Counted from the first letter of the stretch, positions 29,286 through 52,935 are shown. The stretch: 64,000 nt of DNA from Candidatus Gottesmanbacteria bacterium UBA5942 (GCA_002430725.1 DJCU01000008.1:393-64392); one strand, 5' to 3'. Notes: generated by a model from the letters alone, not told the origin. Numbers and translations: made by a program.

Positions 29286-29310
29286 TGTGTCACAATGGTG
29301 TCATTATCCC

Positions 29311-37435: not shown

Positions 37436-39005
37436 GTTCTGCGACAATTGATTGATCGCGGAGGATAAAAATATACGCTCTTCCGACCTTTTTTGTTTCC
37501 AGTGTTGTGTAGCGTTTTGTGCCAATAATAGGTTTGATGCAATTAGCTTCGGCATCAGGGATGCTGGTAAACCGCTGACAGATAGCATACATATAGGTTT
37601 TTAAAATCGGAAATCGATATTCAAATTCAGGTTCGTTACCTTCGCGCTTGAGAGGAACTGAGATGGTGTGATTTTCAATAAGCCAATAAAGCACTCGGTA
37701 TATCGCATACGAGCTGTTATCAGGGTTTAACGGAACTTTATGAAAAAATCCGGTGTTATGTTGGGTAAGTCTGCGTTCGTCCATGGAGTGTTTGATAAAT
37801 TGGGCAATAGCGATAGTCTCTGATGTCTCATTAATGATGCGTCCGGTGATATACGGAGAAAATCCGCTGATATTGAGCAAGCTGTAGATGAATATGATTA
37901 TGACTGCAAGTGTTTTTTGGAAACCTTTTGCGTTGAGCGCCTGTTGAACGCTCATCCCAGTTATAAGAAACATAAATGGAAGATATGCCCACATGCGGTG
38001 GTCGTGCACATCCTGCTGGTAAAGCAATAAAAACACTAACCCCATGGCAAGCATCTCAGGAGCCAAAAATGCGCGGGTTGTTTTGGAAAATGTATGCCAT
38101 TTTATCATCGCGGTAAACAGGATAATGGTAAATGCGGTGATATAAAAAGCCTCGTTGGGAAAATATATGTGAGCGGAGAGAAAGGAAGAGAAAAAAAAGA
38201 AAATATTTTCACTTATTCCGGTAATAATGGTGTGAAGGTTAACATGTGCGGAAAGTGACCCCGTAAACGTGAACGATGGCAACTCGTGATTGATTTCAAA
38301 AATAATCTGAGGTGTATAGATGGCTATAAAGGTAATAATGAGGGTGGCACCTGAAAAAAGTAATGACTGAAACGCTGATCGTTTACCGATGTTTCTATAC
38401 CAACGGGTGATTTGATACCCCATGTAAGGAAGTAGCAGTATGGGCGATGGGTACACCGAAAGGGCAATCATATAGCTCGTTGTAGAAATCCATAACGCGG
38501 TGAGATTTTTGCGATTGAATGCGCGCCAAAGGCACAGGAGGCTTATGATAATAAAAAGTTGCATGGGAAACGGCTGCCAGAATTGCCTGCTGTGGTCTAT
38601 CATGATAAGCGATATAGCAAAAAGTCCTCCCACAATAAAGGCTAATCGCTTCCCACCCATATTCCAGGCAAGTTTCATAAGAAGAATAAGAGATATGATA
38701 TTCATGAAAAAATAGCCAATAACGATACCGCTTACTGATTGCGTCAGGTGGTATAAGAACCATGTGAGGTAGTAGTATGTCGGAGGTGTGTAGAAATCTT
38801 TTAGGCTCAAAAATGGTCCGACAAGTGGCAAATGCCCCATGTGTTCCATGTGCCAGATGACAATAAGATCCATGCCCTGATCTCCGCGAAAGCGTATGGT
38901 TTCTGTAATTCGATAAAGTCGAACGATAATGGCGATCAAGACAGGAAATGCCATGAGGAGCAGCTCATGGAAGCGAAGTGTTTTTCTGAGGATTTGTTTT
39001 TTCAT
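37413..39005 (-). CDS. ArnT/PMT-like polytopic membrane glycosyltransferase candidate
   Basis: It has at least 12 TM helices. It overlaps the convergent DegT gene by 23 nt and the next minus gene by 4 nt. Confidence 0.5.
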   Translation of the reverse strand: MKKQILRKTLRFHELLLMAFPVLIAIIVRLYRITETIRFRGDQGMDLIVIWHMEHMGHLPLVGPFLSLKDFYTPPTYYYLTWFLYHLTQSVSGIVIGYFFMNIISLILLMKLAWNMGGKRLAFIVGGLFAISLIMIDHSRQFWQPFPMQLFIIISLLCLWRAFNRKNLTALWISTTSYMIALSVYPSPILLLPYMGYQITRWYRNIGKRSAFQSLLFSGATLIITFIAIYTPQIIFEINHELPSFTFTGSLSAHVNLHTIITGISENIFFFFSSFLSAHIYFPNEAFYITAFTIILFTAMIKWHTFSKTTRAFLAPEMLAMGLVFLLLYQQDVHDHRMWAYLPFMFLITGMSVQQALNAKGFQKTLAVIIIFIYSLLNISGFSPYITGRIINETSETIAIAQFIKHSMDERRLTQHNTGFFHKVPLNPDNSSYAIYRVLYWLIENHTISVPLKREGNEPEFEYRFPILKTYMYAICQRFTSIPDAEANCIKPIIGTKRYTTLETKKVGRAYIFILRDQSIVAEPISEFSE

Positions 39006-40265: not shown

Positions 40266-41063
40266 TTAATAAAATATATCTTCACCATTGGGGATCGTTG
40301 TTTTGTGCAGTTCTTTAACCGGTATACGGTTTCCTCCGATGTATAAAATTTTTAGATTTGGCGGAAGTACACGAGGAAATTCGCGTAGACGGTTGCCCGT
40401 AAGATCAAGTTCGGTGAGATTAGTGAGATATTGCATGCTGGCAGGTAATTCTTCAAGTTTGTTGTATGCCAAGCTAAGCGTCGTCAGATTGGTCAGGTTG
40501 CCGATTGATTCTGGTAGTCGGGAAATGCGGTTGCCTTCGAGATTAAGTATTTCGAGCGTTGAAATATCACCGATTTGCGTAGGAACTTCGGTAACCCGGG
40601 TATTTCTGATGGTTATTTGTTTAACATTTGTAAAAAGATTTATATTTGTAGGAAGTGATTCAAGTGGCGTATCTTCAATCAGAAGTAAGGTTACCCATGG
40701 CATGGGTTTTTGTAATGGTAATGTGCGTAATAGGTCGGTGCCGTCGAATATAAGTTCTTCTGTGGACGTTTTGGTGAGGTCGGGGTGATTATCTAATATA
40801 CGGAGAAAAAATGTTTGCGGTGAATATACTGCTTGCTGGTGAATTATCCGCTCCGGAAGTATATGTGCAAGATAAAAAAGTTGGGTAAACACCGCCAGCC
40901 ACATGTATACACTGATAGTCGCGATAACACATCCCACCAGTGACCACAATGCTATTTGGCGTATGTTAATGAGGCGATGAGTTTTGGGTTTTGCCGTGGG
41001 GACTATTGCTGCCGTGGAAGGCGCAAATGCGGTGGGTGATGGGGGGACAGGTTGCTCTTGCAT
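40266..41063 (-). CDS. Membrane-anchored leucine-rich-repeat protein
   Basis: The N-terminal TM helix WSLVGCVIATISVYMWLAVF is followed by LRR units: ISTLEILNLEGNRISRLPESIGNLTNLTTLSLAYNKLEELPASMQYLTNLTELDLTGNRLREFP. Confidence 0.7.
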   Translation of the reverse strand: MQEQPVPPSPTAFAPSTAAIVPTAKPKTHRLINIRQIALWSLVGCVIATISVYMWLAVFTQLFYLAHILPERIIHQQAVYSPQTFFLRILDNHPDLTKTSTEELIFDGTDLLRTLPLQKPMPWVTLLLIEDTPLESLPTNINLFTNVKQITIRNTRVTEVPTQIGDISTLEILNLEGNRISRLPESIGNLTNLTTLSLAYNKLEELPASMQYLTNLTELDLTGNRLREFPRVLPPNLKILYIGGNRIPVKELHKTTIPNGEDIFY

Positions 41064-41710: not shown

Positions 41711-43192
41711 GTGATAGAATCAACCCAGATGAAACCGGCTTCGCGCACGCTTATTTTTGCTACGCTGTTGTTTTATGGGTCGCTTGTTATCGCACCGCAT
41801 AAAATTGCTGTTTTTTTATTTACTTTCTGTTATTTTTTCATCCTCTGGCGGCTCATGAGGCATTTTCGACTTGCTCTTATGACGCTGTACCTTACGCTGA
41901 TTCCCATTCTTGTCGGGAAGCTGTTTGATATTGATTTGATTTCTGGAAAGGAGCTTGGAATCCCTGGGAGGGATTTCGGCATAGCCGCGGATATCGTTAT
42001 TACAATATCTGACATCACAGTCGCCCTAATGGGGGTATTGCTGGTAGGTGCCTCCTTACGGAAGGAGTCTTTCAATCGCCAGTATCCTTTTTTGGAGCTT
42101 ATATTGTTTTTGTATGCTGTAGGCACGGTGGTCGCGACACTTATGGGGTCGGTGCGGCCAGATATCTCCATTGTGCATAGCGTATTTGCATTAAAACCGT
42201 TGATTCTGTATTACTTTTTTTCGCTGCAGCCCACGTTGCGTCCCGCAGTAGTCATTTCGGTGTTTACCGCCGGACTTTTTTTCGAACTTGGTATTGTGAT
42301 GGGGCAGGTGCTGAAGGGTGGGTCCATAGGGCTTGTCATCGAAACAATCGGTAATTATATCGTCATCGATCGGTCGCTTGATGCCGCTGGGCTGCTTCGG
42401 TACGGGGGAACCTATATGCACGCCAATGCGTTGGCGCATGCGATGCTTATTCCGTTTTGTTTTTCTGTGTCTGCGTTGTTTTATTCGTACGGGAAAAAAG
42501 ACCGGCTGATTTTTTCGGGATTTTTTGCCGGCCTTATTGTGGTTATTTTGACGATGAGCAGATCGGTATGGTTGAGTGTGGTATTTGGGCTCAGTGTTTT
42601 TTTTATTTTCACCCGATTCGTATGGCGCTATAAATTAAAGCTAATTATCGTGCTTACACTGGCACAGCGTAGTGTCCTGGTTGGTGTCATAGTCGTATTA
42701 GGAATACTCATGATGCCGCGTCTTGTCAGTACCTTATATTCCGGTGGGCTATATGGAAGTATAGAAACTCGCTCAATGCTTCTTAAGGAGTACACACAGT
42801 CGCTATCAACAAATTTGATGGCAGGAGTCGGACTGGAAATGGATGTGTATATGCAGTATCTACGGGCGAGTCATTTTGGAAGCCGCAATATTGATGCACC
42901 GAACCGTTCTGTGCTGCTTTATTTCCCGGAACCCGTTCACAATGGTTTTTTACGACTGCTTATTCAGGTGGGGTTGATAGGGGCAGTTCCTTATTATCTC
43001 CTTGTGTTTTCGTTGGGGTACGTGCTTTATAGAAAGTTGCTGAGGGTTACATCAGTAATGCACCGGTTTTTTGGTGCGTCTTTGATGGCGGCTTACATTG
43101 CCATGATTGTCAACGGATTTATGCAGCCGATTCTTCCTGATATGCCCGTTTTGACCGCGCTTGTTATGATATACTTATCAGATTCGGTATGA
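41711..43192 (+). CDS. O-antigen ligase / Wzy_C-family polytopic membrane protein
   Basis: It has about 12 TM helices. LIVVILTMSRSVWLSVVFGL resembles the Wzy_C signature (TgSRga.l). Confidence 0.55.
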   Translation: MIESTQMKPASRTLIFATLLFYGSLVIAPHKIAVFLFTFCYFFILWRLMRHFRLALMTLYLTLIPILVGKLFDIDLISGKELGIPGRDFGIAADIVITISDITVALMGVLLVGASLRKESFNRQYPFLELILFLYAVGTVVATLMGSVRPDISIVHSVFALKPLILYYFFSLQPTLRPAVVISVFTAGLFFELGIVMGQVLKGGSIGLVIETIGNYIVIDRSLDAAGLLRYGGTYMHANALAHAMLIPFCFSVSALFYSYGKKDRLIFSGFFAGLIVVILTMSRSVWLSVVFGLSVFFIFTRFVWRYKLKLIIVLTLAQRSVLVGVIVVLGILMMPRLVSTLYSGGLYGSIETRSMLLKEYTQSLSTNLMAGVGLEMDVYMQYLRASHFGSRNIDAPNRSVLLYFPEPVHNGFLRLLIQVGLIGAVPYYLLVFSLGYVLYRKLLRVTSVMHRFFGASLMAAYIAMIVNGFMQPILPDMPVLTALVMIYLSDSV

Positions 43193-44061
43193 AAAAACCT
43201 TTCCGGTGGCGCAAAGTAGGATTTATTGAATATTTTGGTATTGTCTTGTTTCTGTTGGTTGCGGCATTTGTCTACGTTTATGTGTCTCCGAAATCGAGTG
43301 ATATTTTGGTTACCCTGCGTGTCGCTGAAAAAGATTTAATCTGGTTGGATAACGGGTCGCCGCGGGGGATACGGGCAAGCACGATTAAAGAAGGGATGAA
43401 AGAGGTGGATGTATTCGGGAGAGTTATTGCGGAGGTTGTGAAGGTTCGATCGTTCAGTCAGCCCCAGACCGAATCGGTATATCTGAATAAAAAAACCGTC
43501 TATGTCACGCTGAGACTCCGCGCGCAATATAACAAACAAAAAAAACAATACCGGTTTCAAGGAACCGTTTTACAGGCAAGCGATTGGCTGCGCGTAACGA
43601 TCCAGTCAACTATTGTGAACGGTGTTTTGGTGATGGTGCCTGCAAAAGAATCACCTCCTCCTTATTATGTGACCCTGAAGACACAAGTAAAGCTGGAGAA
43701 CCCGTTTCTCTACGAGCCCTTCAACGAAACGACCGGTGTTGATCCGTACGTAGCAGACGCGATAACTGTCGGGGAAAAAGCTACGGATTCTGACGGTTTT
43801 GTACTCGCGGAGGTGTTGGAGAAAACAGTGCGTCCTGCCTCGATTATTGTCGGCGATCAATACGGAAATATTTTTGAGCGGCAGCACCCTCGGAAAGTTG
43901 ATATTTTTCTTACTATCCGTGTCGCAGCACAGGAGATTGATGGTCAGCTGTATTATTTGGATACCATTCCTTTGCAGGTAAACTTGCCAGTGCCACTTTT
44001 TCTCAAAAACATTACCGTAGAGCCGAGGATTGTAGAGATTGTCTCCGTTGAGTCGCCTTAA
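43189..44061 (+). CDS. Hypothetical N-terminally anchored protein
   Basis: TM helix IEYFGIVLFLLVAAFVYVYV. It overlaps the upstream gene by 4 nt. Confidence 0.5.
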   Translation: MKKPFRWRKVGFIEYFGIVLFLLVAAFVYVYVSPKSSDILVTLRVAEKDLIWLDNGSPRGIRASTIKEGMKEVDVFGRVIAEVVKVRSFSQPQTESVYLNKKTVYVTLRLRAQYNKQKKQYRFQGTVLQASDWLRVTIQSTIVNGVLVMVPAKESPPPYYVTLKTQVKLENPFLYEPFNETTGVDPYVADAITVGEKATDSDGFVLAEVLEKTVRPASIIVGDQYGNIFERQHPRKVDIFLTIRVAAQEIDGQLYYLDTIPLQVNLPVPLFLKNITVEPRIVEIVSVESP

Positions 44062-44072
44062 TTCGCAGAATT

Positions 44073-44103
44073 ACACATACGCCGCTCATTCGAGTTTATG
44101 TGT
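44073..44103. terminator. Weak bidirectional terminator candidate between convergent genes (ACACATA-N17-TATGTGT)
   Basis: A 7-bp AT-rich inverted repeat at 44073-44079 / 44097-44103. The right arm overlaps the stop codon of the minus gene. There is no clear U-tract. Confidence 0.2.
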
Positions 44104-45208
44104 GAGGTGTATTAGGGGAGTGTTTTGCGCGCTGATTTTTTATCGCTGCCTGGATGTAAGTGGCAAGCCTCTTGCGAAATACTTGTTTGCTGTATTGTTT
44201 CGCATGCCGATATAGTCGCGTTGATGAAAACTGCATGTGCGATATCCGTTGTATGGCGGTCATCAGGCTTTTTACTGTGTGCTTACGAAAAAATACTCCG
44301 GTAACTCCATCTTTCAGTGTCTCTTTCGGGCCGCCGCCATAGTAAGCGATCACTGGAACACCATGTGCTAATGCTTCCAGTGGTGCAATGCCGAAATCCT
44401 CCTTTTTTGATGGAAAAAGAAATGCGATGGTGCTTTGATACAGTGTTCTGATTTCTTTATCGGATTTGAAACCAAGAAACTGAACGGTCGGGCCAGCAAT
44501 CTCCCGCAGGAATTGTTCGTATCTGGGCTCATTGGTGACACCCACAATGCGAAGCGGGACACCAAGCTTTGTACACGCTTTTACTGCGAGTTCTAGGTGT
44601 TTATCGCGGTCTAGCCGAGATACACAGAGGAAAAACTCCGGTTTACTGCGCTTGGGTAATACCGTAGGGATTTGTACAGGGGGAGGGAGGATGTGCGCGT
44701 GAATACCAAATAGTCTCCGTATCGTTTGTTGCATGTGTCGGGAGCTCGTCAGAATAAACGGAGTATTGGTAATTGCCTGGCGATATTTAGGTGCGATGTA
44801 TTGGTCATAATGAGTCAATCGCATCAAGGGAGTCTTTGGTAGTAGTCCAAATAGTGATTTGGGAATTGTATGGATATACTGAATATGTACACTATGAGGG
44901 GCATTGATCATGTTACACATCAGGGTGCAGGCACTGGAAAGGACCAAATCATAGCGAGATAAGTCTATTTTCCCCCACAGATATGGAGCCATAACCTGCA
45001 TCAGGGAACGGTGGGTAGAGATCAGTGATAGAATTTGCCATCGTGTCTGAAGCACAAATGTTTGTCTGGCTAAAAAATTCTGCACCACCCATTTTTCCGC
45101 AAATGACGTGATGCAAACCGCCTTGGGGAACATTTCAAGCATGGTGAGCGTTACTCGTTCTGCTCCACCGAAATCGTCAAATGTGTCATTTATGATGGCG
45201 ATATTCAT
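44096..45208 (-). CDS. GT4-family GT-B glycosyltransferase
   Basis: EDFGIAPLEALAHGVPVIAYYGGGPKETLKDGVTGVFF is the canonical GT4 E-x7-E/nucleotide-sugar motif. The ORF track starts at 45280; I prefer the internal ATG at 45208 (MNIAIINDTFDDFGGAER), which reduces the overlap with the GT2 gene to 23 nt. Confidence 0.75.
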   Translation of the reverse strand: MNIAIINDTFDDFGGAERVTLTMLEMFPKAVCITSFAEKWVVQNFLARQTFVLQTRWQILSLISTHRSLMQVMAPYLWGKIDLSRYDLVLSSACTLMCNMINAPHSVHIQYIHTIPKSLFGLLPKTPLMRLTHYDQYIAPKYRQAITNTPFILTSSRHMQQTIRRLFGIHAHILPPPVQIPTVLPKRSKPEFFLCVSRLDRDKHLELAVKACTKLGVPLRIVGVTNEPRYEQFLREIAGPTVQFLGFKSDKEIRTLYQSTIAFLFPSKKEDFGIAPLEALAHGVPVIAYYGGGPKETLKDGVTGVFFRKHTVKSLMTAIQRISHMQFSSTRLYRHAKQYSKQVFRKRLATYIQAAIKNQRAKHSPNTPHT

Positions 45209-46106
45209 AGAATTTGACCACATGATACCAAAGTTTACCGATGCGTGAAACGGTAGGAAAGATGATGAGAAGTAGCCCATAATAGAACTGCTGGAGTATA
45301 GGAAATCTCTGTGCCGAGCAAATCTCCTTGATAAACCATACAGGGAAAAATGTTGGGTATGGGGATGCCCGTAAATCTACTTTATACTCATCTATGGTAC
45401 ATGCATCAGAATACCCATTCCAGAACGCTGCAGTCCATAGTGGGCCAAACGAAACTCTTGGGGTTGCATGCGCGATAATGGTAGGGTCAAAATAAATTGT
45501 TTTTCCTGCTTGTACGAGACGAAGGCCGAGCTCTACATCGTCATTTCGGTATCTACGGTGTCGTTCGGGAAATCCAAAGGAAAGAAGGGTAGATCGTCTG
45601 ATACCCATGACTTCACAATCGAGTATTCTACCCCAGAGAAGGGGAACGGCTCGTTTTAGTCCGGGAAAAAAATGATTTAATCCTCGCTGGTAGTAGGCAA
45701 ATTGAGTTGCCGCGTATATATTGTCTTCGTGTGAGTTTGTTATGCGCCCAATAACCGCAGTAAGAGTAGGGTCTCTTTGGAAATGTTTTTGAAACTTTGC
45801 TAGGTACTTGCGGTCTGCAACGCAGTCATCATCCAAGTAAACGACAATATCTCCATGTGCTGTTTTTGCCCCAAGTGTACGTCCATAAGGAATAGAGTGT
45901 TTCGTATTTCTTTTGATGATATGGAGTGTGTTGGTGTGTGACTTGATGACCGCAACCGTTTGTTTGTGAAGTTGGGTTGATCCGTCTACTATGACGACTT
46001 CAATAGGTTGTGTTTTCTGTTTGTGAATTGAGGTAAGTGCCTTTTCTAATAGGTGTGGGCGATCGCTGGTAAGGATAATAACACTGATAGTTGGCGGTTT
46101 ATTCAT
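45186..46106 (-). CDS. GT2 glycosyltransferase
   Basis: ISVIILTSDRPHLLEKALTSIHKQ and VYLDDDCV match the family. Confidence 0.7.
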   Translation of the reverse strand: MNKPPTISVIILTSDRPHLLEKALTSIHKQKTQPIEVVIVDGSTQLHKQTVAVIKSHTNTLHIIKRNTKHSIPYGRTLGAKTAHGDIVVYLDDDCVADRKYLAKFQKHFQRDPTLTAVIGRITNSHEDNIYAATQFAYYQRGLNHFFPGLKRAVPLLWGRILDCEVMGIRRSTLLSFGFPERHRRYRNDDVELGLRLVQAGKTIYFDPTIIAHATPRVSFGPLWTAAFWNGYSDACTIDEYKVDLRASPYPTFFPVWFIKEICSAQRFPILQQFYYGLLLIIFPTVSRIGKLWYHVVKFYEYRHHK

Positions 46107-47116
46107 GGCTCTCGAGCTGATAACAGGGGTTTACCGGTGGTAATAAGCGACACAATATCTGCTCCAACTTTGAGTTTATTTTTTTTGATAGCGTCTTTTG
46201 CGGTGCACACTATCCAACAGTCATTACAGGCATGCGCTGCCGGGAGAAATTGTTGTTTAGGTTTTGAATACCATATTTGTTCAAATGATTGTTTTCGTAA
46301 GTTGCCAATTGGCCAATTTTTAATTTGACACATAAATATATTGGCAAATGGATCCATGTAGAAGAAATTTTCTCCTGCACCACAAGGGAGTGGGCGGCGA
46401 TGGTGTAGCATATATTCATACGAATACCGATTAAACCATGCCTTGCCCCAATTTTTGGGATTGATACTTTTCATCTGTTCAGAAAATAAATAATCAAACT
46501 CTTTTTTGACACTGCGGGGTTTTGGCTGCAACGATACTTTTCCTTTGCCAAAATAGATAGGCGAATCGTGAACGACATTGAGTGAAAAGGCGAGGTTTTC
46601 TTTTTTACAGTGGGCATAGACAGCTTTAAGTTCGTGTTGGTTGATACCCATGAGAGTAAACGTAAGGCCAATATCTTTTACCCCTGCTTCCTTGAGGATT
46701 GCCACTGATTGCATAACTTTTTCAAACGCTTGCGGTATGCCTCGAACTTTTTCATGGGTAGCCCCCCAACCATCGAGAGAAAGTCGAAATGCGATGGCAG
46801 GATCGTTTTTTACGATAGCCGGCGCATATTTTTTGATTTTTGAAGGTAAGAAGCCATTAGTGGTAATAAGTATTCTCGCTTTGGGACAACGTTTTCGGAT
46901 TATTCCGACAATTTCAGGAATATCGTTTCGTAAAAATGGTTCGCCACCGGTGATATCGACCATTTCGAGTGATGTGGGCAATTTTTTATATATTGTCACT
47001 GGCAAAAAATCGAGTCCACGATTTTTCCAGATGTCACAGTGGATACAACGAGAATTACAAAGGAGGGTGACGGAAATAAATGCGCTTTTGGGTAATGGAG
47101 ATTTCGTGTTAACCAT
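46103..47116 (-). CDS. Radical SAM enzyme with a C-terminal Cys-rich (SPASM/twitch-like) auxiliary cluster region
   Basis: The N-terminal CNSRCIHCDIW is a CxxxCxxC motif. GGEPFLRND resembles the SAM-binding GGEP motif. The C-terminal CGAGENFFYMDPFANIFMC ... CNDCWIVC resembles C-x-G-x14-C ... C-x2-C-x4-C. Confidence 0.7.
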   Translation of the reverse strand: MVNTKSPLPKSAFISVTLLCNSRCIHCDIWKNRGLDFLPVTIYKKLPTSLEMVDITGGEPFLRNDIPEIVGIIRKRCPKARILITTNGFLPSKIKKYAPAIVKNDPAIAFRLSLDGWGATHEKVRGIPQAFEKVMQSVAILKEAGVKDIGLTFTLMGINQHELKAVYAHCKKENLAFSLNVVHDSPIYFGKGKVSLQPKPRSVKKEFDYLFSEQMKSINPKNWGKAWFNRYSYEYMLHHRRPLPCGAGENFFYMDPFANIFMCQIKNWPIGNLRKQSFEQIWYSKPKQQFLPAAHACNDCWIVCTAKDAIKKNKLKVGADIVSLITTGKPLLSAREP

Positions 47117-47206
47117 AATAACGCTGGAACGAGAATAGCAGGCTCATTCCCGCCTGACAATTGAGTATATCATCTGTTTGTTGCCAAGGGAGTGCGATAG
47201 AGGAGG

Positions 47207-47689
47207 CTATCCGCTCTGACGAGCTAATATGTCGAGATAGCGAATGAGTGCCGGATTTTTCTTTTGTATCGGGTCGATGCTGCTTGTGGCTGTCATAATT
47301 TTTATAAGCGGTGTTTTGGGGGTGACGATGCGGATAAGGTGGTGATTTGCCATAAATGTCGCAAAATCAACCTGATGGTCATTAAGGTGTTCTCCGTAGT
47401 GCTTTTGTCGTGGGAGCACCCAGGGAATTTTTCCAAATGAAAGCGCTTGGTATATTGTTGCTGGTCCACCATGGCAAATAATCACTCGTGCGAGCTTCAT
47501 GTATTGCATAAGTTTTCGATGCGGTATGAACGCGTGGGGTTCTATTTCAGGATCGAGAAAGTGTGGTGGTGTATGTCCGTATTGAAATATGATTTTTTCA
47601 TTTGTCGGGCGAATATGAATAAGATGCTCGACCAAAGTCGTCATCCGTTGGAATGGAAATAGTGTGGAGCCAACTGTTATTAGTATCAT
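47207..47689 (-). CDS. Alg13-like (Glyco_tran_28_C) catalytic subunit of a split glycosyltransferase (PssE/EpsF/Cps14G-like)
   Basis: MILITVGSTLFPFQRM...ARVIICHGGPATIYQALSFGKIPWVLPR...HLNDHQVDFA matches the Alg13 consensus vfVTvGtt.Fd...l.vQ.G...AdlvIsHaGaGsile.l..gKp.ivvpr...NHQ.ela. Confidence 0.6.
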   Translation of the reverse strand: MILITVGSTLFPFQRMTTLVEHLIHIRPTNEKIIFQYGHTPPHFLDPEIEPHAFIPHRKLMQYMKLARVIICHGGPATIYQALSFGKIPWVLPRQKHYGEHLNDHQVDFATFMANHHLIRIVTPKTPLIKIMTATSSIDPIQKKNPALIRYLDILARQSG

Positions 47690-48141
47690 AATATCGCTCC
47701 TTTGTACTTCGCGCGCGGATAGAATTTTTTTTGGGTAGGATGCTGCACAAGTATATGATCGACAAATGGTGATACAAGGCGACCAGTAAGGCTTGAAGTT
47801 TTTACGAGGTCAAACACTTCGATAAATACGGTTTTTATGCCAAGGAGTTTACCGATAATAAAAAATGGAGGCGCTATACCGGCGCCGCAGCTAATAAGGA
47901 GCGTTGGGCGTTCGGCTCTCAGGATTTGCCATGCAAGCCTGATGTGACGGATAGCATTATAGATATGCCTCGTTTCCGGGTAATAACCATAATAAACCCG
48001 TTCTTTTTTGAGCAGTGAGGCAACATCTTCACCGGAAAACGTTACCCAAAAATGGTCATACTTACTCCACCAGGGCTTTAGCCGATACATCTGGTATACG
48101 TGACCGCCTTTTGACGTAATAATACCAATGACTGGCTTCAT
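47686..48141 (-). CDS. Alg14-like membrane-associated partner subunit (PssD/EpsE/Cps14F-like)
   Basis: IGIITSKGGHVYQMYRL.., LLISCGAGIAPPFFIIGKLLGIKTVFIEVFDLVKTSSLTGRLV...YPRAKYKG matches the Alg14 consensus (SGGHt.em; NGpG.cvp...iyvES.aRv..lSltGkl; yp.a.y.G). It overlaps its Alg13-like partner by 4 nt. Confidence 0.6.
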   Translation of the reverse strand: MKPVIGIITSKGGHVYQMYRLKPWWSKYDHFWVTFSGEDVASLLKKERVYYGYYPETRHIYNAIRHIRLAWQILRAERPTLLISCGAGIAPPFFIIGKLLGIKTVFIEVFDLVKTSSLTGRLVSPFVDHILVQHPTQKKFYPRAKYKGAIL

Positions 48142-49010
48142 CGATGCCTAGCGTACCCCCAAATTCTGATACATGCAAGTGCTATGTAGAGAAATATATG
48201 ACCAAATGCCTCTTTCCACTTACCATGACGTATAAATCGTATTTCTCTTTGGGAAAAACTTTGTATATGGAGCAGAAGTTTTTTGGCGGGAATAACGCCA
48301 AGGCGTTCTCCGCGGGGGAGAATGTTGTCGAGATAGCCTTCGCTTTCAGCAAACCGCTGATGCTGCCTAAGAAAGCTTTGGAGTGTCGTTCGCTCGTGGT
48401 GGGACGCGATAATAGATCGGTCGAGATAGATGGTAATTCCTGCTCTCCGAAGCCGCAGTCCGAGTTCAATATCTTCGCTTCCACGGTGCATGCGAGGCGA
48501 TAGTCCGCGGTGTTTCCAAAACAATGCCCTTGGCATGGAGGCGTTTTTGCTATCAAAAGATTTGAGCGTGTTTTTTGAAAGCGACATAGCCGCAAGCCAA
48601 TTTTTGTAGTGATCACCCATAATATCAACGTAGACGTTACCGCGGGGGATACTGTGTGTAAACCCTTGAATAACTGCGTTAGGGTGTTTCATGTGTGCGC
48701 GTCTTATACGAGCAAGGAATGTTTTTGAGGCTTTGCAGTCATCGTCAAAAAATACCAGAATATCACCCTTGGCGCGTCTGGCTGCTTCATTATAAAAGGC
48801 TGGATACCCTTTTTTGAGATAGCGGACATATACAATAGGAAGTTTTTTAGCGAGTTTTGCGACAATGTGAGGCGTGTCATCAGTTGAGGCGTCTACGACA
48901 ATTATTTCATCATTCGTTCTACATTGACCAATAAGTGACGTAAGTGCAATTTTAAGAAGCGCTGATCTATTTTTGGTAACGGTAATAATGGAAAGTGTAG
49001 GGAGTTTCAT
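48138..49010 (-). CDS. GT2 glycosyltransferase
   Basis: LSIITVTKNRSALLKIALTSLIGQ and VFFDDDC match the family. Confidence 0.65.
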   Translation of the reverse strand: MKLPTLSIITVTKNRSALLKIALTSLIGQCRTNDEIIVVDASTDDTPHIVAKLAKKLPIVYVRYLKKGYPAFYNEAARRAKGDILVFFDDDCKASKTFLARIRRAHMKHPNAVIQGFTHSIPRGNVYVDIMGDHYKNWLAAMSLSKNTLKSFDSKNASMPRALFWKHRGLSPRMHRGSEDIELGLRLRRAGITIYLDRSIIASHHERTTLQSFLRQHQRFAESEGYLDNILPRGERLGVIPAKKLLLHIQSFSQREIRFIRHGKWKEAFGHIFLYIALACIRIWGYARHR

Positions 49011-51040
49011 TGGGGAAGTATTGTTGGAATTGCGATAATGTCAGGCGCGCGCAGCCCGGGTTCGATGAGATCGGTAAGATCGGATACCGCATTCCTGCAT
49101 CCTATTTTTGCATACGCATTTTGTTCGCATACCGCGAGCGCAGCATTTGCCCTCGCTTCATCCTTGTACCAGAAATAATACGCGCTGGCGAGTTCAAGGT
49201 GATAGAAACCCCATTCGGGAGCGATATTGCGCGCAGTTTCCCATAGGAGAGTAGTGCCTGCTATGTCTTTTTGTACTCTATATACCGAAAGCCCTAAGAA
49301 AAAATAAAATTTTGCTTTACCATCCGTTCCTTCGAGGTGATCAAGCACTGAATAAAGCGCGCCAGTGTTCGTGTAGCGAGAAAACGCATCACTTTGAAGA
49401 TACGGACAGAGTTTGTCCGGTAATAGTGCATGGTCTGATTGAGAAAATTTGCATATTGTGACGCCAATGTGATCTTTTTCATTATTATTCATTAATAGCA
49501 TGAGATATTCTTTGAGATATCCATTGTTATACGGGTGATAGGTGAGTGCTTTCTCATAGTATTTTTTAGCAGCAAGAGAACCGTCTGAATGAGCGAGGGC
49601 GTAATATATATCAGGATCCTGATCATACCACCCAAGAATGATGGGAGTAATTTTTTTCGTTTCTTGAGGGGTAGCTTCATTGATCGCTCGTAAGATATTG
49701 TTTTTGAAATACGGGGCAATCCGAATTGATTGGGTGAGAGTGAGGTTGCCCGAGAATAGGTGTACAGTCGCATAGCTGATTACAAAAGCCGCTAATAGAA
49801 GACAAACAATGATAGACACTATCTCTCTTAACTTTTGCGTTGCTCGTGTCGTATGCGGGATTACATGACCGCTCATTGCCCAGAATAACATCCACATAGA
49901 GAGATTGTTGAGGGCTGTTTCTATTGTGCTGTAGCCAAGAAGGAGTATGCTCGCCCAAGCAAGCGCAACGTGTGACATATTTTTTGATGTTTGTGAGACA
50001 GAAAGTAAAGAAAAAAAGACGGTGCTAAATAGTATTGCGATGGGAAGTGAGCCGATGATACCGTTTTCTGCTAGCGTTTCAAAAGGGAGTGAGTGAGTAT
50101 AGCTCGTGTACGTGTCTTGTGATATCGCATACTGTCGGGAGATAAGATGAAACGTACCAGGCCCATGTCCTAGTATTGGCCTGTCTTGTAGTGCGTTTAT
50201 CGCATCCTCTATATAGGAAAACCGTAATGAATGATTGCTTTCTTTGAGAAAAAAGCGAAGTTGCGGATACCCGCTTGTTAGCTCTAGTTTTTGTTCGTAT
50301 GGTAATAACGACAGCCAAAACATGGCGGAAAAAGAGGTGATACATATTCCGAGTAGCACAAAGGTAAAAAACTGATGAGAGAAGTGTTTTATTTGCGTGG
50401 CGCGAAATATAAAAAATGCTGTTGCAACAATCCAAGATCCTCTTGCCGCACTGAGGATAAGCGCAATAAATACAAGAAGGTTTTGCATATACATTTTGAT
50501 TGTTTTTGGGTGGGCGAGTAGCAGCATTACAGGGAGTAGGGCGATCAGGAGGTATGCGACAGGATGGTGTCCGCTTGTCGCAAGTATTCCGTTATATACA
50601 GGAAGATACTGTGAAAAAACAGGGAATATGAGGAGCAGGAGAAAAATAATGAGTATCGCATTTCCTGCGGTACGTAATCCGTGAGTAAATGTGGGCGTGC
50701 TTTTGTGGTACGAGCGGTCATCTATAGCAAGGAAAAATATGACTGATCCTTCGATAAATCGAACAATAGAAACAAGTGAACTTGCAATACTTCGTGAATT
50801 CGCGGCCGTTATAAGGAATGCAAGTATTGTTGCACCCCACAGCAGTAGTAATGTGCGGGGTAGTACGAAAGCTTTTTTGTTGGTAACTATGCGAAAACCT
50901 ACAAGAAAAAGTAGCGCGATTGCCCAATAAAATTCAAGGAAAAGTGTTTTATCGTGAGGCAAGAAAAATGAAAGAAAGAAGAAAACGAAAAAGGGGCTCA
51001 TAGTGATCGAATTATGATAATTATGTGCGTAGTGTACCAT
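49007..51040 (-). CDS. Wzy_C/O-antigen-ligase-family membrane protein with C-terminal TPR-like repeats (PglL/PilO-type O-oligosaccharyltransferase candidate)
   Basis: The N-terminal 400 aa are multi-TM. VFIALILSAARGSWIVATAFFIF is a Wzy_C-like signature. The C-terminal 250 aa are soluble with TPR-like helical pairs (YYEKALTYHPYNNGYL; LELASAYYFWYKDEARANAALAVCEQ). The gene is divergent from the pilin genes with a 65-nt gap. Confidence 0.6.
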   Translation of the reverse strand: MVHYAHNYHNSITMSPFFVFFFLSFFLPHDKTLFLEFYWAIALLFLVGFRIVTNKKAFVLPRTLLLLWGATILAFLITAANSRSIASSLVSIVRFIEGSVIFFLAIDDRSYHKSTPTFTHGLRTAGNAILIIFLLLLIFPVFSQYLPVYNGILATSGHHPVAYLLIALLPVMLLLAHPKTIKMYMQNLLVFIALILSAARGSWIVATAFFIFRATQIKHFSHQFFTFVLLGICITSFSAMFWLSLLPYEQKLELTSGYPQLRFFLKESNHSLRFSYIEDAINALQDRPILGHGPGTFHLISRQYAISQDTYTSYTHSLPFETLAENGIIGSLPIAILFSTVFFSLLSVSQTSKNMSHVALAWASILLLGYSTIETALNNLSMWMLFWAMSGHVIPHTTRATQKLREIVSIIVCLLLAAFVISYATVHLFSGNLTLTQSIRIAPYFKNNILRAINEATPQETKKITPIILGWYDQDPDIYYALAHSDGSLAAKKYYEKALTYHPYNNGYLKEYLMLLMNNNEKDHIGVTICKFSQSDHALLPDKLCPYLQSDAFSRYTNTGALYSVLDHLEGTDGKAKFYFFLGLSVYRVQKDIAGTTLLWETARNIAPEWGFYHLELASAYYFWYKDEARANAALAVCEQNAYAKIGCRNAVSDLTDLIEPGLRAPDIIAIPTILPQ

Positions 51041-51100: not shown

Positions 51101-51108
51101 TATTTGTG

Positions 51109-51831
51109 ATGAAACGGATGTTGTCTGCCCATCTCGTAAAGTTATCCCGCCGATCACCTCAGGCAGGATGGACACTTGCGGAGCTACTCATAGTAGTTGT
51201 CATTATCGCAATCCTTGCGATTATGTTTTTATTGATAAATTGGAAGCGAAATGTTTTTCGTGCGCAGGATGCACAGCGAAAAACTGATGTTGCTAATATA
51301 CGGCGTGCATTTGAGGAGTACTACAATGACAACAATTGTTATCCCTCTGTTGAGGTGCTCAATAATTGCGAAGGAAATGAACTAAGTCCGTATTTAGAAA
51401 AAATTCCCTGCGATCCCACGACACAGGAGCCATACTTATATCAACCTGACAGTGAAACAAATGTGTGTTTAGGAAATCGTGTGTGTACGAAGCTACAAGA
51501 TTGGGCTGATCCCGATATTACAACCCTTGGTTGTCACGCAGAGGAAGGGTGCGGATGGGGCGCGTATTGGAATTACTGCCTTGCGACTGGCACTACCGTA
51601 ACAGCTCCTGGATTTATTCCTGGCACGACGCCAACACCATCGTTAACTCCTACGCCTGCGTATGATGGGCCGTATGCTTGTCGTCCGGGCACGTTGTCGG
51701 GTGGTCAAGTTGTTAGCTCAGGGACATGTAATAATGTTGGTGATCCAGCTTCTTATGGATGTCCACGATCATTTGCAGAGTCTGATTGTCAGGGGTTATG
51801 CGGAAGCGTCAGTTATTGGTGTGCGCAATAA
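51109..51831 (+). CDS. Type IV pilin/pseudopilin-like protein 1 (prepilin-type N-terminal cleavage/methylation domain)
   Basis: RRSPQAG|WTLAELLIVVVIIAILA has Gly at -1, an aromatic residue at +1, Glu at +5 and a hydrophobic alpha1 helix. The C-terminal region contains Cys pairs. The track start at 51106 is a GTG, and the ATGs at 51109 and 51118 are in frame. Confidence 0.75.
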   Translation: MKRMLSAHLVKLSRRSPQAGWTLAELLIVVVIIAILAIMFLLINWKRNVFRAQDAQRKTDVANIRRAFEEYYNDNNCYPSVEVLNNCEGNELSPYLEKIPCDPTTQEPYLYQPDSETNVCLGNRVCTKLQDWADPDITTLGCHAEEGCGWGAYWNYCLATGTTVTAPGFIPGTTPTPSLTPTPAYDGPYACRPGTLSGGQVVSSGTCNNVGDPASYGCPRSFAESDCQGLCGSVSYWCAQ

Positions 51832-51859
51832 CATGATAATTGGTTATACTATAAAAGAT

Positions 51860-52381
51860 ATGATGAAAAAATTTCGTAACCGCGAAGGGTTTACCCTCAT
51901 GGAGCTTCTGATTGTTATGGTGATATTGTCAGTGCTTGTGGCTATCGCAACAGGTACATACGCATCAAGCTCACGTAGAGGTCGCGACAATCGGAGAAAA
52001 AATGACTTGCGTAATATTACGACCGCTCTCGAGACGTATTATAGTGATAAAGGTCGATATCCTTCCAGTAATGCCGCAGGTGAGATGGTGGGCTGTTGTG
52101 CGAGCCCAGGATGCGGTGATATTCAGGTGTGTAGTTGGGGTGGGCAATTCAAAGACACCAACGGAACACTGTATATGGTGCTTATTCCAGAAGACCCATT
52201 AAGTAGTCAGACATATTATTATCAGGCAGGAACTGATACGTACAGAATTTATGCTAAACTAGAAAATACACTGGATGAAGGTGATTATGTGAACCAGTCA
52301 GGGTACTCGGGTACTGATTGTTCAGTTGATAGTACGGTAGCATGCACGTATGGCATAAGTAGCGGCAATACAACTCCCTAA
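51860..52381 (+). CDS. Type IV pilin-like protein 2
   Basis: MMKKFRNREG|FTLMELLIVMVILSVLVAIA is a classic type IVa prepilin N-terminus. The track ORF 51662-52381 carries a spurious N-terminal extension overlapping pilin 1, so I used the ATG at 51860. Confidence 0.8.
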   Translation: MMKKFRNREGFTLMELLIVMVILSVLVAIATGTYASSSRRGRDNRRKNDLRNITTALETYYSDKGRYPSSNAAGEMVGCCASPGCGDIQVCSWGGQFKDTNGTLYMVLIPEDPLSSQTYYYQAGTDTYRIYAKLENTLDEGDYVNQSGYSGTDCSVDSTVACTYGISSGNTTP

Positions 52382-52392
52382 ATATATCAAAC

Positions 52393-52935
52393 ATGAAATC
52401 AATGATGCTTAATAGTAAACAAAGTAACAAACCATACGGTTTTAGCCTCATAGAATTGTTAGTGGCCATCGCGGTGATTGCGACCATTATTGGGCTTGCC
52501 TTGCCAAACTTCTTGGGAGCGAGAACTCGGGCAAGAGATGCGCGAAGGAAAGGTGAGTTGAGCCAGTTAAAAACAGCGGTGCAACTTTATTACAATGACT
52601 ACAAAGTATTTCCTCCGGCAGCCAATGGCACAGGGGTAACAAATTATATAGCTGGTTGCGGTACTGATGGTGAAACACTTTGTCCTGCTGGGTGTAGTGT
52701 TGATTTTGCCGCGGGTGCGACTACCGGATGCGATACAGTATATATGACAAATTTTCCGGGAGAGTTGGGGACAGGCATGTCGTATTATTCAAGTAGCGCA
52801 GATTTTTGTATCAAAGTGTCATTAGAAAACGTATCTGATGGAGACATAACGTCTTCGCAGGGTCGCTGCAGCGCTGCGTGTGTGAGGGCAGGAAGTGTGT
52901 TGTCCGGAGCAGATTACGCGGTGTGTTCAGAATAA
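52393..52935 (+). CDS. Type IV pilin-like protein 3
   Basis: MKSMMLNSKQSNKPYG|FSLIELLVAIAVIATIIGLALP, with C-terminal Cys pairs (CPAGCSVD...C; CSAAC). Confidence 0.8.
   Translation: MKSMMLNSKQSNKPYGFSLIELLVAIAVIATIIGLALPNFLGARTRARDARRKGELSQLKTAVQLYYNDYKVFPPAANGTGVTNYIAGCGTDGETLCPAGCSVDFAAGATTGCDTVYMTNFPGELGTGMSYYSSSADFCIKVSLENVSDGDITSSQGRCSAACVRAGSVLSGADYAVCSE

What the first reader, a model, noticed from the sequence alone, without database searches (positions are those of the whole stretch)
46103..49010. Radical SAM/SPASM-like enzyme embedded in a glycosyltransferase operon next to an Alg13/Alg14-like split GT pair
The operon order on the minus strand is GT2 - Alg14-like - Alg13-like - (90-nt gap) - radical SAM - GT2 - GT4. 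SPASM/twitch radical SAM enzymes are best known as peptide maturases, but no precursor peptide ORF is nearby. In this context the enzyme more likely performs radical chemistry on a sugar, as DesII/AprD4/GenK/BlsE do on sugars (deamination, dehydration, C-methylation or epimerization), or matures a protein cofactor for the pathway. The Alg13/Alg14-type split GT, typical of EPS/CPS second-sugar addition, confirms that a lipid-linked oligosaccharide is built here.
Basis: partly seen in the sequence, partly recalled or inferred. Interest (0 to 1): 0.55.

Follow-up and report, generated by a model that had tools for sequence, protein, structure and literature searches.

The report
Glycan-linked radical SAM enzyme family
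A real radical SAM enzyme sits inside a cell-surface sugar-chain operon of a candidate-phyla-radiation bacterium; it belongs to a large uncharacterised family that almost always neighbours glycosyltransferases, is sometimes fused to them, and so probably performs an unknown radical tailoring step on a sugar.

Summary
The minus-strand operon is Wzy_C, GT2, Alg14-like, Alg13-like, a 90-nt gap, radical SAM, GT2, GT4. The 337-aa enzyme passes the Pfam Radical_SAM and SPASM thresholds.

It is not a full SPASM protein. It has five conserved C-terminal cysteines, not seven. Four of them are lost together in some relatives, which is the signature of a single twitch-type auxiliary cluster. The fifth, C304, stays conserved on its own.

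No precursor peptide ORF lies in the gap, and none is conserved across 82 related loci.

The family is large and spans many bacterial phyla and some archaea. No NCBIfam model claims it. The gene just downstream is a GT4 in 38 of 66 loci, against about 1% far from the gene. Fusions exist with GT2, GT4 and an Alg13-like domain (14 contigs, at least three samples), and with a lipid-flippase-like membrane domain.

The closest solved structure is BlsE, a glucuronide decarboxylase, but the match is remote.

My verdict: an uncharacterised glycan-tailoring radical SAM family coupled to glycosyl transfer. The chemistry is unknown; epimerisation or oxidation is my leading guess. I rate it moderately interesting and a new variant of a known kind.

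The parts
46103..47116 (-). Radical SAM enzyme, 337 aa, with a CX3CX2C motif (C20/C24/C27), a GGE motif (G57-E59) and a truncated SPASM (twitch-like) C-terminal domain. The domain has C245, C263, C297 and C300, plus the W301-x-x-C304 motif.
   Evidence: Pfam PF04055 60.8 bits and PF13186 30.1 bits. Conserved residues. AF2 model pLDDT 87. Foldseek best hits: BlsE, SkfB, anSME, MoaA, BtrN.
47117..47206 (-). 90-nt intergenic gap between the Alg13-like gene and the radical SAM gene. It holds no peptide ORF. It has one promoter-like match (TTGTCA-17-TATTCT), which is no more than chance would give.
   Evidence: Gap length varies from 7 to 104 nt in relatives, and the two genes are fused in P0123.
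47207..47689 (-). Alg13-like (GT28 C-terminal, PssE/Cps14G-type) catalytic half of a split glycosyltransferase.
   Evidence: PF04101 48.5 bits. NCBIfam PssE 71.6 bits, below the cut-off of 120, and WelK 71 bits. 31% identical to the N-terminal domain of the P0123 fusion.
47686..48141 (-). Alg14-like (PssD/Cps14F-type) membrane-anchoring half of the split glycosyltransferase.
   Evidence: PF08660 44.3 bits. NCBIfam PssD 117 bits, above the cut-off of 110.
48138..49010 (-). GT2 glycosyltransferase, upstream of the split pair.
   Evidence: PF00535 76.4 bits.
49007..51040 (-). 677-aa membrane protein with a Wzy_C (O-antigen ligase / polymerase / O-oligosaccharyltransferase-type) domain. It is the first gene of the operon.
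   Evidence: PF04932 56.9 bits. The same position is conserved in L001 and L002.
45186..46106 (-). GT2 glycosyltransferase. Its start overlaps the radical SAM stop codon by 4 nt.
   Evidence: PF00535 68.1 bits. It is the conserved +1 neighbour in the closest five loci.
44096..45280 (-). GT4 glycosyltransferase, last gene of the operon. The true start is probably the internal Met near 45208.
   Evidence: PF00534 107.3 bits. Orthologues are 361-377 aa in L001, L002 and L006.
41711..44061 (+). Convergent pair on the plus strand, whose 3' end faces the operon's 3' end: a second Wzy_C protein (41711-43192) and a DUF4330-like protein (43189-44061). The pair is conserved beside the operon in close relatives.
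   Evidence: The same pair occurs in L001 and L002. DUF4330 homologues occur in 10 loci.

Best explanation
The 46103-47116 gene encodes a twitch-type radical SAM enzyme of an uncharacterised, widely distributed family. I propose that it carries out a radical tailoring step on a sugar during assembly of a cell-surface glycan, working in physical or kinetic partnership with a neighbouring glycosyltransferase.

Proposed mechanism:
1. The CX3CX2C cluster cleaves SAM reductively, and the 5'-deoxyadenosyl radical abstracts a hydrogen from a sugar C-H. This follows from the family motifs.
2. The substrate is the sugar that the partner GT has just attached to a lipid-linked intermediate, or is about to extend. 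In this window the partner is the Alg14/Alg13 pair, with the GT2 and GT4 downstream. This is inferred from synteny and fusions.
3. One auxiliary [4Fe-4S] cluster, held by C245, C263, C297 and C300, shuttles an electron. This is inferred from the joint loss of these four Cys in some relatives.
4. The separately conserved C304, in a W-x-x-C motif, returns a hydrogen atom. That would give epimerisation, as in NeoN and HygY. Oxidation to a keto-sugar would be the alternative where C304 is absent. This last step is speculative.
For: - Radical SAM and SPASM profiles are passed, and C20, C24, C27, G57, G58 and E59 are invariant.
- The AF2 model is confident (pLDDT 87). Its best structural matches are SPASM/twitch enzymes, led by the sugar-acting BlsE (E 6e-13, TM 0.65). 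BtrN also matches. BlsE is also the best PDB hit by sequence.
- The operon order is the same at 78% and 62% identity. At 48% identity the gene still lies among GT4s, a Wzy_C gene and a WecG gene.
- Across 82 non-redundant loci from many phyla, the +1 gene is a GT4 in 38/66 and a GT2 in 5/66. The -1 gene is a GT4 in 22/71, Wzy_C in 11, Alg13-like in 6 and GT2 in 5. The +-2 genes are GT4 in 33/110.
- GT4 frequency is 42% at +1, 36% at +2 and 21% at -1, against about 1% at six or more genes away.
- Fusions were found as GT2-rSAM (P0152, P0183, P0240, P0267, and a single ORF in genome DNA at L052), GT4-rSAM (P0190, P0199) and Alg13-like-rSAM (P0123, on 14 contigs from at least three samples, with an Alg14 gene just upstream). 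LPG_synthase_TM-rSAM fusions (P0259, P0261) also exist.
- C245, C263, C297 and C300 are kept together in about 250 of 298 members. They are lost together in about 25, all of which keep C304. About 12 members have G at 304 but keep the four Cys.
- These subtypes track the partner type: forms without the four Cys pair with GT4 cluster B and other partners, and G304 forms pair with GT4 cluster A.
- Precedents exist for a GT followed by a radical SAM enzyme acting on the attached sugar: Cds, HpnJ and PtmC (PMC13459092, PMC9092360). NeoN Cys249 is a hydrogen donor, and HygY is a twitch epimerase with latent dehydrogenase activity (both as cited in PMC10991966).
Against: - There is no biochemical evidence at all. 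No characterised close relative exists, and every NCBIfam hit is far below its cut-off.
- Similarity to BlsE is remote (15% identity; sequence E 8.5e-6 over the N-terminal 134 residues only). It is no better than similarity to the peptide-modifying SkfB or anSME.
- Synteny and fusions show coupling to glycosyl transfer. They do not show whether the substrate is the lipid-linked glycan, the nucleotide-sugar donor, the lipid carrier or a protein.
- Cysteine roles are inferred from sequence patterns only. I could not measure distances in the model.
- No accessory enzyme that would use a keto-sugar product is consistently linked to the gene.
- No priming transferase or flippase was seen in the window.
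Confidence: 0.6

Rival explanations
1. The enzyme acts one step earlier, on a soluble nucleotide sugar. It would make an unusual donor for the partner GT, for example by BlsE-like C5 decarboxylation of a UDP-uronic acid to a pentose, or by C-H oxidation or epimerisation of a UDP-hexose.
For: BlsE, a glucuronide decarboxylase, is the best PDB match by both sequence and fold (PMC3715490). The adjacent split GT weakly resembles the glucuronosyltransferases PssD/E and WelK. Fusion to a GT domain is equally compatible with channelling a donor.
Against: The similarity to BlsE is remote. Fusions with a lipid-flippase-like membrane domain (P0259, P0261) and placement beside 'second-sugar' GTs point to membrane-bound substrates. 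No UDP-glucose dehydrogenase gene is enriched among the neighbours.
Confidence: 0.2
2. The enzyme is a protein- or peptide-modifying SPASM/twitch maturase. It would be either a RiPP enzyme or an anSME-like activator that modifies a residue in one of the pathway's proteins (a GT, a Wzy_C protein or a pilin).
For: Most characterised SPASM/twitch enzymes act on peptides or proteins. SkfB, anSME, SuiB, EpeE and PqqE are all among the structural matches. Fusion to a GT could also reflect an enzyme-activator pair.
Against: There is no ORF in the gap and no conserved small ORF within 2 kb in 82 loci. The protein has no RRE/PqqD domain, and the radical SAM motif starts at residue 20. No peptidase or ABC exporter is enriched among the neighbours. 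A sulfatase gene lies nearby in only one lineage. The partners are four unrelated protein types (GT2, GT4, GT28_C, LPG_synthase_TM), which is hard to reconcile with a single protein target.
Confidence: 0.1
3. The enzyme modifies the lipid part of the substrate, either the polyprenyl carrier or a glycolipid anchor, rather than the sugar. This would resemble lipid-modifying radical SAM enzymes such as Tes/GDGT-MAS.
For: GDGT-MAS is among the structural hits (7tol), and NCBIfam Tes scores 33.8 bits. Fusions to the LPG_synthase_TM membrane domain exist. The review PMC13459092 documents many lipid-modifying radical SAM enzymes.
Against: The matches to Tes and GDGT-MAS are weak and confined to the radical SAM core. 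The protein has no predicted membrane segment. Its linkage is specific to GT genes rather than to lipid-synthesis genes.
Confidence: 0.07

Closest known systems
BlsE / MilG cytosylglucuronate decarboxylase (PDB 7VOB; PMC3715490)
   Same: It is the best PDB match by sequence (E 8.5e-6) and by fold (E 6.4e-13, TM 0.65/0.67). It has a similar size, a radical SAM core followed by a Cys-containing C-terminal domain, and it acts on a sugar C-H.
   Different: Structural-alignment identity is about 15%, and the sequence match covers only residues 11-144. BlsE works on a soluble nucleoside sugar in an antibiotic pathway, not in a glycan-assembly operon. Its C-terminal motif is CxCxxC (PMC3715490), not CX17C...CX2CX3C.
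Twitch radical SAM sugar dehydrogenases and epimerases: BtrN, SpeY, HygY, NeoN
   Same: They have a radical SAM core plus a truncated SPASM domain with one auxiliary cluster, and their substrates are sugars or cyclitols. BtrN and SpeY appear among the fold hits. An extra catalytic Cys decides between epimerase and dehydrogenase outcomes in HygY, and NeoN Cys249 is a hydrogen donor (as cited in PMC10991966). This parallels the independently conserved C304 here.
   Different: No sequence-level membership: NCBIfam twitch model NF033640 scores 43.8 bits against a cut-off of 170. Those enzymes belong to aminoglycoside pathways acting on soluble intermediates. The family here is tied to GT4, GT2, Alg13/14 and Wzy_C genes.
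GT-coupled radical SAM enzymes acting on an already attached sugar: calditol synthase Cds, HpnJ, PtmC (PMC13459092, PMC9092360)
   Same: The logic is the same. A glycosyltransferase attaches a hexose to a lipid or aglycone, and a radical SAM enzyme then remodels that sugar. The substrates are membrane-associated.
   Different: Those enzymes catalyse ring contraction to cyclitols. I could not compare their sequences here. HpnJ is, from my own knowledge, a B12-domain radical SAM enzyme. None is known to be fused to a GT or to act in Wzy-type glycan loci.
SPASM peptide and protein maturases (SkfB, AlbA, SuiB, PqqE, MftC, anSME)
   Same: They share the fold class, and PF13186 is passed. The mycofactocin system also pairs a radical SAM enzyme with a GT2 (MftF). 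Both GT2s in this window hit that model weakly, at 63-66 bits against a cut-off of 280.
   Different: There is no precursor peptide, no RRE domain, five rather than seven or eight Cys, and no protease or exporter.
PssD/PssE, Cps14F/Cps14G, Alg14/Alg13 split glycosyltransferases
   Same: The two adjacent, overlapping genes at 47207-48141 match PF08660 and PF04101. The PssD model is passed.
   Different: The PssE model is not reached (71.6 against 120). In a relative, the Alg13-like half is fused to the radical SAM enzyme. To my knowledge this has not been described for the known pairs.

Membership tests
Radical SAM superfamily (PF04055) | CX3CX2C motif binding the SAM-cleaving [4Fe-4S] cluster | tested here: met
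   C20, C24 and C27 are 100% conserved in 298 aligned members.
Radical SAM superfamily (PF04055) | Profile score above the Pfam gathering threshold, and a GGE SAM-binding motif | tested here: met
   60.8 bits against 29.5. G57, G58 and E59 are invariant.
Radical SAM superfamily (PF04055) | Reductive cleavage of SAM to a 5'-deoxyadenosyl radical | not testable with these tools
   This needs anaerobic biochemistry.
SPASM domain (PF13186 / TIGR04085) | Profile score above the gathering threshold | tested here: met
   PF13186 scores 30.1 bits against 21.5, with residues 245-301 covering model positions 1-67.
SPASM domain (PF13186 / TIGR04085) | Seven-Cys motif CX9-15GX4C...CX2CX5CX3C...C that binds two auxiliary clusters (definition from my own knowledge: Haft & Basu 2011; Grell et al. 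2015) | tested here: not met
   Only five conserved Cys are present, as C245-X17-C263 ... C297-X2-C300-X3-C304.
Twitch subclass of radical SAM enzymes | Truncated SPASM domain (beta-hairpin plus helix) carrying a single auxiliary Fe-S cluster | tested here: inconclusive
   The model predicts a hairpin at 251-261 and helices at 278-296. The four Cys are kept or lost as a block. BtrN, SkfB and MoaA are among the fold hits. Cluster number and type need spectroscopy. NCBIfam NF033640 is not reached (43.8 against 170).
RiPP radical SAM maturase | Adjacent precursor peptide gene conserved in related loci | tested here: not met
   The gap holds no ORF of 20 aa or more. No small-ORF family spans more than 2 of 83 loci, and those pairs are antisense shadows of conserved genes.
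RiPP radical SAM maturase | RRE/PqqD-like leader-binding domain, leader peptidase or exporter nearby | tested here: not met
   The protein has only PF04055 and PF13186. Its neighbours are dominated by GT4, GT2 and Wzy_C.
Anaerobic sulfatase-maturing enzyme (anSME) | Full SPASM domain with two auxiliary clusters, and a cognate sulfatase gene | tested here: not met
   Five Cys only. A sulfatase-family gene was seen only in L004/L005. No anSME model is among the 25 best NCBIfam hits.
Haem / haem d1 / molybdenum-cofactor radical SAM enzymes (AhbC, AhbD, NirJ, MoaA) | NCBIfam equivalog score above the cut-off | tested here: not met
   AhbC 60.7 against 650, NirJ2 56.8 against 500, AhbD 55.5 against 500, MoaA 51.1 against 284. 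Sources name relatives only generically: 'MoaA/NifB/PqqE/SkfB family radical SAM enzyme', 'radical SAM protein with 4Fe4S-binding SPASM domain', 'radical SAM protein' and, for three, 'Fe-coproporphyrin III synthase'.
PssD/PssE (Alg14/Alg13-like) split glycosyltransferase | Two adjacent genes matching PF08660 and PF04101, in the order Alg14 then Alg13 | tested here: met
   The genes overlap by 4 nt. PssD scores 117 against 110 (met); PssE scores 71.6 against 120 (below).
Wzx/Wzy-dependent lipid-linked repeat-unit pathway | Initiating phosphoglycosyltransferase, Wzx flippase and Wzy polymerase in the locus | tested here: inconclusive
   Two Wzy_C proteins are present. No Bac_transf or MraY-type transferase and no Polysacc_synt flippase appear among the 30 window proteins scanned. 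Several large membrane proteins have no Pfam hit. The related locus L086 has a Bac_transf gene.

The most novel reading that the evidence does not exclude
A widespread and so far unrecognised radical step exists in the assembly of lipid-linked surface glycans of bacteria and archaea. A twitch-type radical SAM enzyme would dock to the glycosyltransferase, or be fused to it, and would epimerise, oxidise, decarboxylate or rearrange the sugar as it is added. This would produce non-canonical sugars without nucleotide-sugar tailoring pathways. Such a route would be especially useful to the metabolically minimal candidate-phyla-radiation bacteria. The GT-rSAM fusions would then define a new class of bifunctional enzyme that combines glycosyl transfer with radical tailoring.
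Probability: 0.4. Interest if true: 0.72.

Novelty: new variant of a known kind. Interest (0 to 1): 0.55.

Why it matters
Radical SAM chemistry on sugars is known almost only from antibiotic pathways and from a few lipid head groups. If this family tailors sugars during surface-glycan assembly, the following would matter.

- It would add a new type of reaction to polysaccharide and glycoconjugate biosynthesis. The family has about 1,100 clusters at 50% identity, spread over many phyla.
- It could explain the origin of unusual sugars in uncultured lineages.
- It would give glycoengineers a compact, anaerobic tailoring module that nature has already fused to glycosyltransferases.
- It would give radical SAM enzymologists a natural series of variants to study: with the auxiliary cluster, without it, and without C304. 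These could help dissect how twitch enzymes choose between epimerisation and oxidation.

Tried and rejected
- **Literature.** Five full-text searches combining radical SAM with SPASM, glycosyltransferase, polysaccharide, capsule or Patescibacteria found no paper on this family. 'Twitch' mostly retrieved twitching motility.
- **Papers not held.** The Cds paper (PMC6305003), the HygY paper (PMC8611816) and the SPASM/twitch review (PMC4326806) are not in the library. Statements about them rest on secondary citations or on my own knowledge. I could not obtain the Cds sequence for comparison.
- **RiPP reading.** Rejected after the ORF scan of the gap and small-ORF clustering across 82 loci.
- **anSME, haem (Ahb/NirJ) and MoaA assignments.** Rejected on NCBIfam cut-offs and Cys count.
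- **Window GT4 as the universal partner.** Rejected. It scores only 20-50 bits against the downstream GT4s of distant loci. Those GT4s instead form two families of their own, of 23 and 15 loci. NCBIfam gives them no specific name; the best hit for cluster A is Cps2T-like, far below its cut-off.
- **Promoter and terminator scan.** The operon shows no more sites than shuffled sequence, so the 90-nt gap cannot be called a transcription boundary.
- **Model geometry.** The tools do not expose the coordinates of the AF2 model, so Cys-Cys and Cys-to-SAM-site distances could not be measured.

Full report
**1. Observation**

- Wzy_C protein, 49007-51040
- GT2, 48138-49010
- Alg14-like, 47686-48141
- Alg13-like, 47207-47689
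- 90-nt gap, 47117-47206
- radical SAM, 46103-47116
- GT2, 45186-46106
- GT4, 44096-45280

All junctions except the gap are 4-nt overlaps. The exception is the GT2/GT4 junction: there the longest ORF overlaps by 95 nt, and the true start is probably an internal Met near 45208.

Pfam assigns Radical_SAM (60.8 bits, cut-off 29.5) and SPASM (30.1 bits, cut-off 21.5) to the 337-aa protein. It assigns Alg14 and Glyco_tran_28_C to the split pair, and GT2, GT4 and Wzy_C to the others. NCBIfam places the Alg14-like protein in PssD/Cps14F (117 bits, cut-off 110). The Alg13-like protein falls below the PssE cut-off (71.6 against 120).

**2. Wider setting**

The stretch from about 22 kb to 51 kb of the window is one large glycan-biosynthesis island. 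It contains:
- YfhO- and PMT_2-type membrane proteins
- two DegT aminotransferases
- a hexapeptide acyltransferase and a methyltransferase
- five GT2s and two GT4-type proteins
- two Wzy_C proteins

I found no Bac_transf or MraY-type priming transferase and no Wzx-type flippase among the proteins scanned.

The nearest named genome is a Candidatus Gottesmanbacteria MAG (78% identity for the radical SAM protein, same gene order). The window is therefore most likely from a Patescibacteria (CPR) genome.

**3. The protein**

An alignment of 21 homologues, and later of 203 and 298 members, shows invariant C20, C24 and C27 (CX3CX2C) and G57, G58 and E59.

The C-terminal domain has five conserved cysteines, arranged as C245-X17-C263 ... 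C297-X2-C300-X3-C304. This is not the seven-Cys SPASM signature.

The pattern across 298 members is informative:
- C245, C263, C297 and C300 are present together in about 250 members.
- They are replaced together in about 25 members, all of which keep C304.
- About 12 other members keep the four Cys but have Gly at position 304.

W301 and C304 are among the few residues conserved at 90% or more across the whole family.

I read the four co-varying Cys as ligands of a single twitch-type auxiliary cluster, as in BtrN. I read C304 as a functionally separate and possibly catalytic residue. This is an inference from sequence patterns. I could not inspect the model coordinates.

The AlphaFold2 model is confident (pLDDT 87.4, pTM 0.88). 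Foldseek against the PDB returns only SPASM/twitch-class enzymes at the top, in this order:
- BlsE (E 6.4e-13, TM 0.65/0.67)
- SkfB, anSME, MoaA and SuiB
- BtrN, EpeE and PqqE

BlsE is also the best PDB hit by sequence (E 8.5e-6). No NCBIfam equivalog comes near its cut-off.

**4. Not a RiPP system**

- The 90-nt gap holds no ORF of 20 aa or more.
- In relatives the same gap is 7-104 nt. In one lineage the two flanking genes are fused.
- I clustered all small ORFs (15-110 aa) within 2 kb of the gene in 82 related loci plus the window. No family spans more than two loci, and those pairs are antisense shadows of conserved genes.
- The protein has no RRE/PqqD domain.
- No peptidase or exporter families are enriched among the neighbours.

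**5. Family size and spread**

- The word-indexed search found 685 relatives at E<=1e-5.
- The exhaustive profile search found 1,107 50%-identity clusters at E<=1e-30.

The 80 best loci from that scan come from several Patescibacteria lineages, other bacterial phyla and some archaea:
- Patescibacteria: Gottesman-, Roizman-, Woese-, Falkow- and Moranbacteria
- Acidobacteriota and Krumholzibacteriia
- Anaerolineae and Nitrospirota
- Cyanobacteria, Planctomycetota and Verrucomicrobiota
- Bacteroidales
- Thermoplasmatota and Euryarchaeota

**6. Conserved context**

The window's gene order is kept at 78% and 62% identity. At 48% identity the gene lies between a GDSL-type protein and GT4s, with a Wzy_C gene and a WecG gene nearby.

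Neighbours across the non-redundant loci:

| Position | GT4 (PF00534) | Other frequent families |
|---|---|---|
| +1 (downstream) | 38/66 | GT2 5/66 |
| -1 (upstream) | 22/71 | Wzy_C 11, Alg13-like 6, GT2 5 |
| +-2 | 33/110 | |

With a less sensitive phmmer labelling, GT4 frequency is 42% at +1, 36% at +2 and 21% at -1. It falls to about 1% at six or more genes away.

The downstream GT4s fall into two families of their own, with 23 and 15 loci. The radical SAM subtypes track them. Forms lacking the four Cys occur with cluster B or with other partners. G304 forms occur with cluster A.

The Alg13/14 pair is a partner only in the window's own clade.

**7. Fusions**

Pfam scans of the over-long family members show these architectures:
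- GT2-rSAM: P0152, P0183, P0240 and P0267, plus a single 621-aa ORF in genome DNA (L052)
- GT4-rSAM: P0190 and P0199
- Alg13-like-rSAM: P0123
- LPG_synthase_TM-rSAM: P0259 and P0261
- rSAM-methyltransferase
- rSAM-GHL15
- rSAM fused to a second radical SAM domain

P0123 is encoded on 14 contigs from at least three independent samples. It always lies directly after an Alg14 gene and a GT2 gene, in a locus that also has Wzy_C, GT4, GFO/MocA, DegT and Bac_transf genes. It is therefore a genuine fusion of the same two genes that flank the 90-nt gap in this window. Its N-terminal domain is 31% identical to the window's Alg13-like protein.

Fusion to four unrelated kinds of partner argues for coupling to the act of glycosyl transfer at the membrane, rather than to one particular protein.

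**8. Mechanism**

Shown:
- Intact radical SAM motifs.
- A truncated SPASM domain.
- Tight and directional genomic coupling to glycosyltransferases.
- Physical fusion to them in several lineages.

Inferred:
- The substrate is a sugar in the pathway, most likely the residue on a lipid-linked intermediate handled by the partner GT.
- There is one auxiliary cluster on C245, C263, C297 and C300.

Speculative:
- C304 returns a hydrogen atom to a sugar radical, which would give epimerisation.
- Oxidation to a keto-sugar is the outcome in the G304 variants.

This mirrors the reported behaviour of NeoN (Cys249 as hydrogen donor) and HygY (a twitch epimerase that becomes a dehydrogenase when one Cys is mutated), as cited in PMC10991966.

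A second specific possibility is BlsE-like decarboxylation of a uronic acid residue. The adjacent split GT weakly resembles the glucuronosyltransferases PssD/E and WelK (PMC3715490). That rests on remote similarities only.

Precedents exist for a GT followed by a radical SAM enzyme acting on the attached sugar: calditol synthase Cds, HpnJ and PtmC (PMC13459092, PMC9092360).

**9. Rivals**

- Nucleotide-sugar tailoring upstream of the GT: confidence 0.2.
- Protein or peptide modification: 0.1.
- Modification of the lipid carrier: 0.07.

The evidence for and against each is given in the Rival explanations section. None is excluded by computation alone.

**10. Novelty and verdict**

I found no paper and no curated model that describes this family. 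Source databases give relatives only generic names, or 'Fe-coproporphyrin III synthase', which the NCBIfam haem-enzyme scores do not support.

The kind of enzyme, a sugar-acting twitch/SPASM radical SAM enzyme, is known. What is new is its embedding in surface-glycan assembly loci across many phyla and its recurrent fusion to glycosyltransferases. I therefore rate it a new variant of a known kind, of moderate interest (0.55). The function remains to be shown experimentally.

Noticed in passing
window 51106-52935 (+), next to 49007-51040 (-): Three consecutive type-IV-pilin-like genes, with N-terminal G-[FW]-[TS]-L-x-E-L-L motifs, lie divergently beside the 677-aa Wzy_C protein. The same adjacency (N_methyl genes) occurs in L001. 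From my own knowledge, the Wzy_C family includes the pilin O-oligosaccharyltransferases PilO/TfpO and PglL, so this operon might glycosylate pilins.
   Followed up: partly
window 99-12740 (+) and 54612-61181 (-): Two giant ORFs of 4213 aa and 2189 aa. The second has many repeats of the form 'FNGTSDYI...W..H/Y...DG..', which by eye look LamG/concanavalin-like. Its L001 counterpart carries DUF7483. These are probably large surface proteins typical of CPR genomes.
   Followed up: no
window 41711-44061 (+): A second Wzy_C protein and a DUF4330-like protein form a pair convergent with the operon's 3' end. The pair is conserved beside the operon in L001, L002, L006 and L008. The role of the DUF4330-like protein in the glycan pathway is unknown.
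   Followed up: partly
window 22371-30837 and 37413-39005: Four proteins of 530-558 aa (22371-24044, 27672-29285, 29161-30837, 37413-39005) have no Pfam hit. They lie among YfhO- and PMT_2-type genes. They may be unrecognised GT-C-type glycosyltransferases or polymerases.
   Followed up: no
L043, L044, L049 (gene +1); P0236, P0238: In some lineages the family member is followed by a second, AhbD/NirJ-like SPASM radical SAM enzyme, or is fused to a B12-binding radical SAM enzyme. This suggests multi-step radical tailoring.
   Followed up: partly
L006, L008, L009, L012 and others (titles): Many MAG records titled 'uncultured Gammaproteobacteria bacterium' carry loci nearly identical in content to the Gottesmanbacteria locus. 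The record titles are probably taxonomic mislabels.
   Followed up: no
window 40266-41063 (-): A leucine-rich-repeat protein of 265 aa lies beside the glycan island. An LRR protein occupies a similar position in L001.
   Followed up: no
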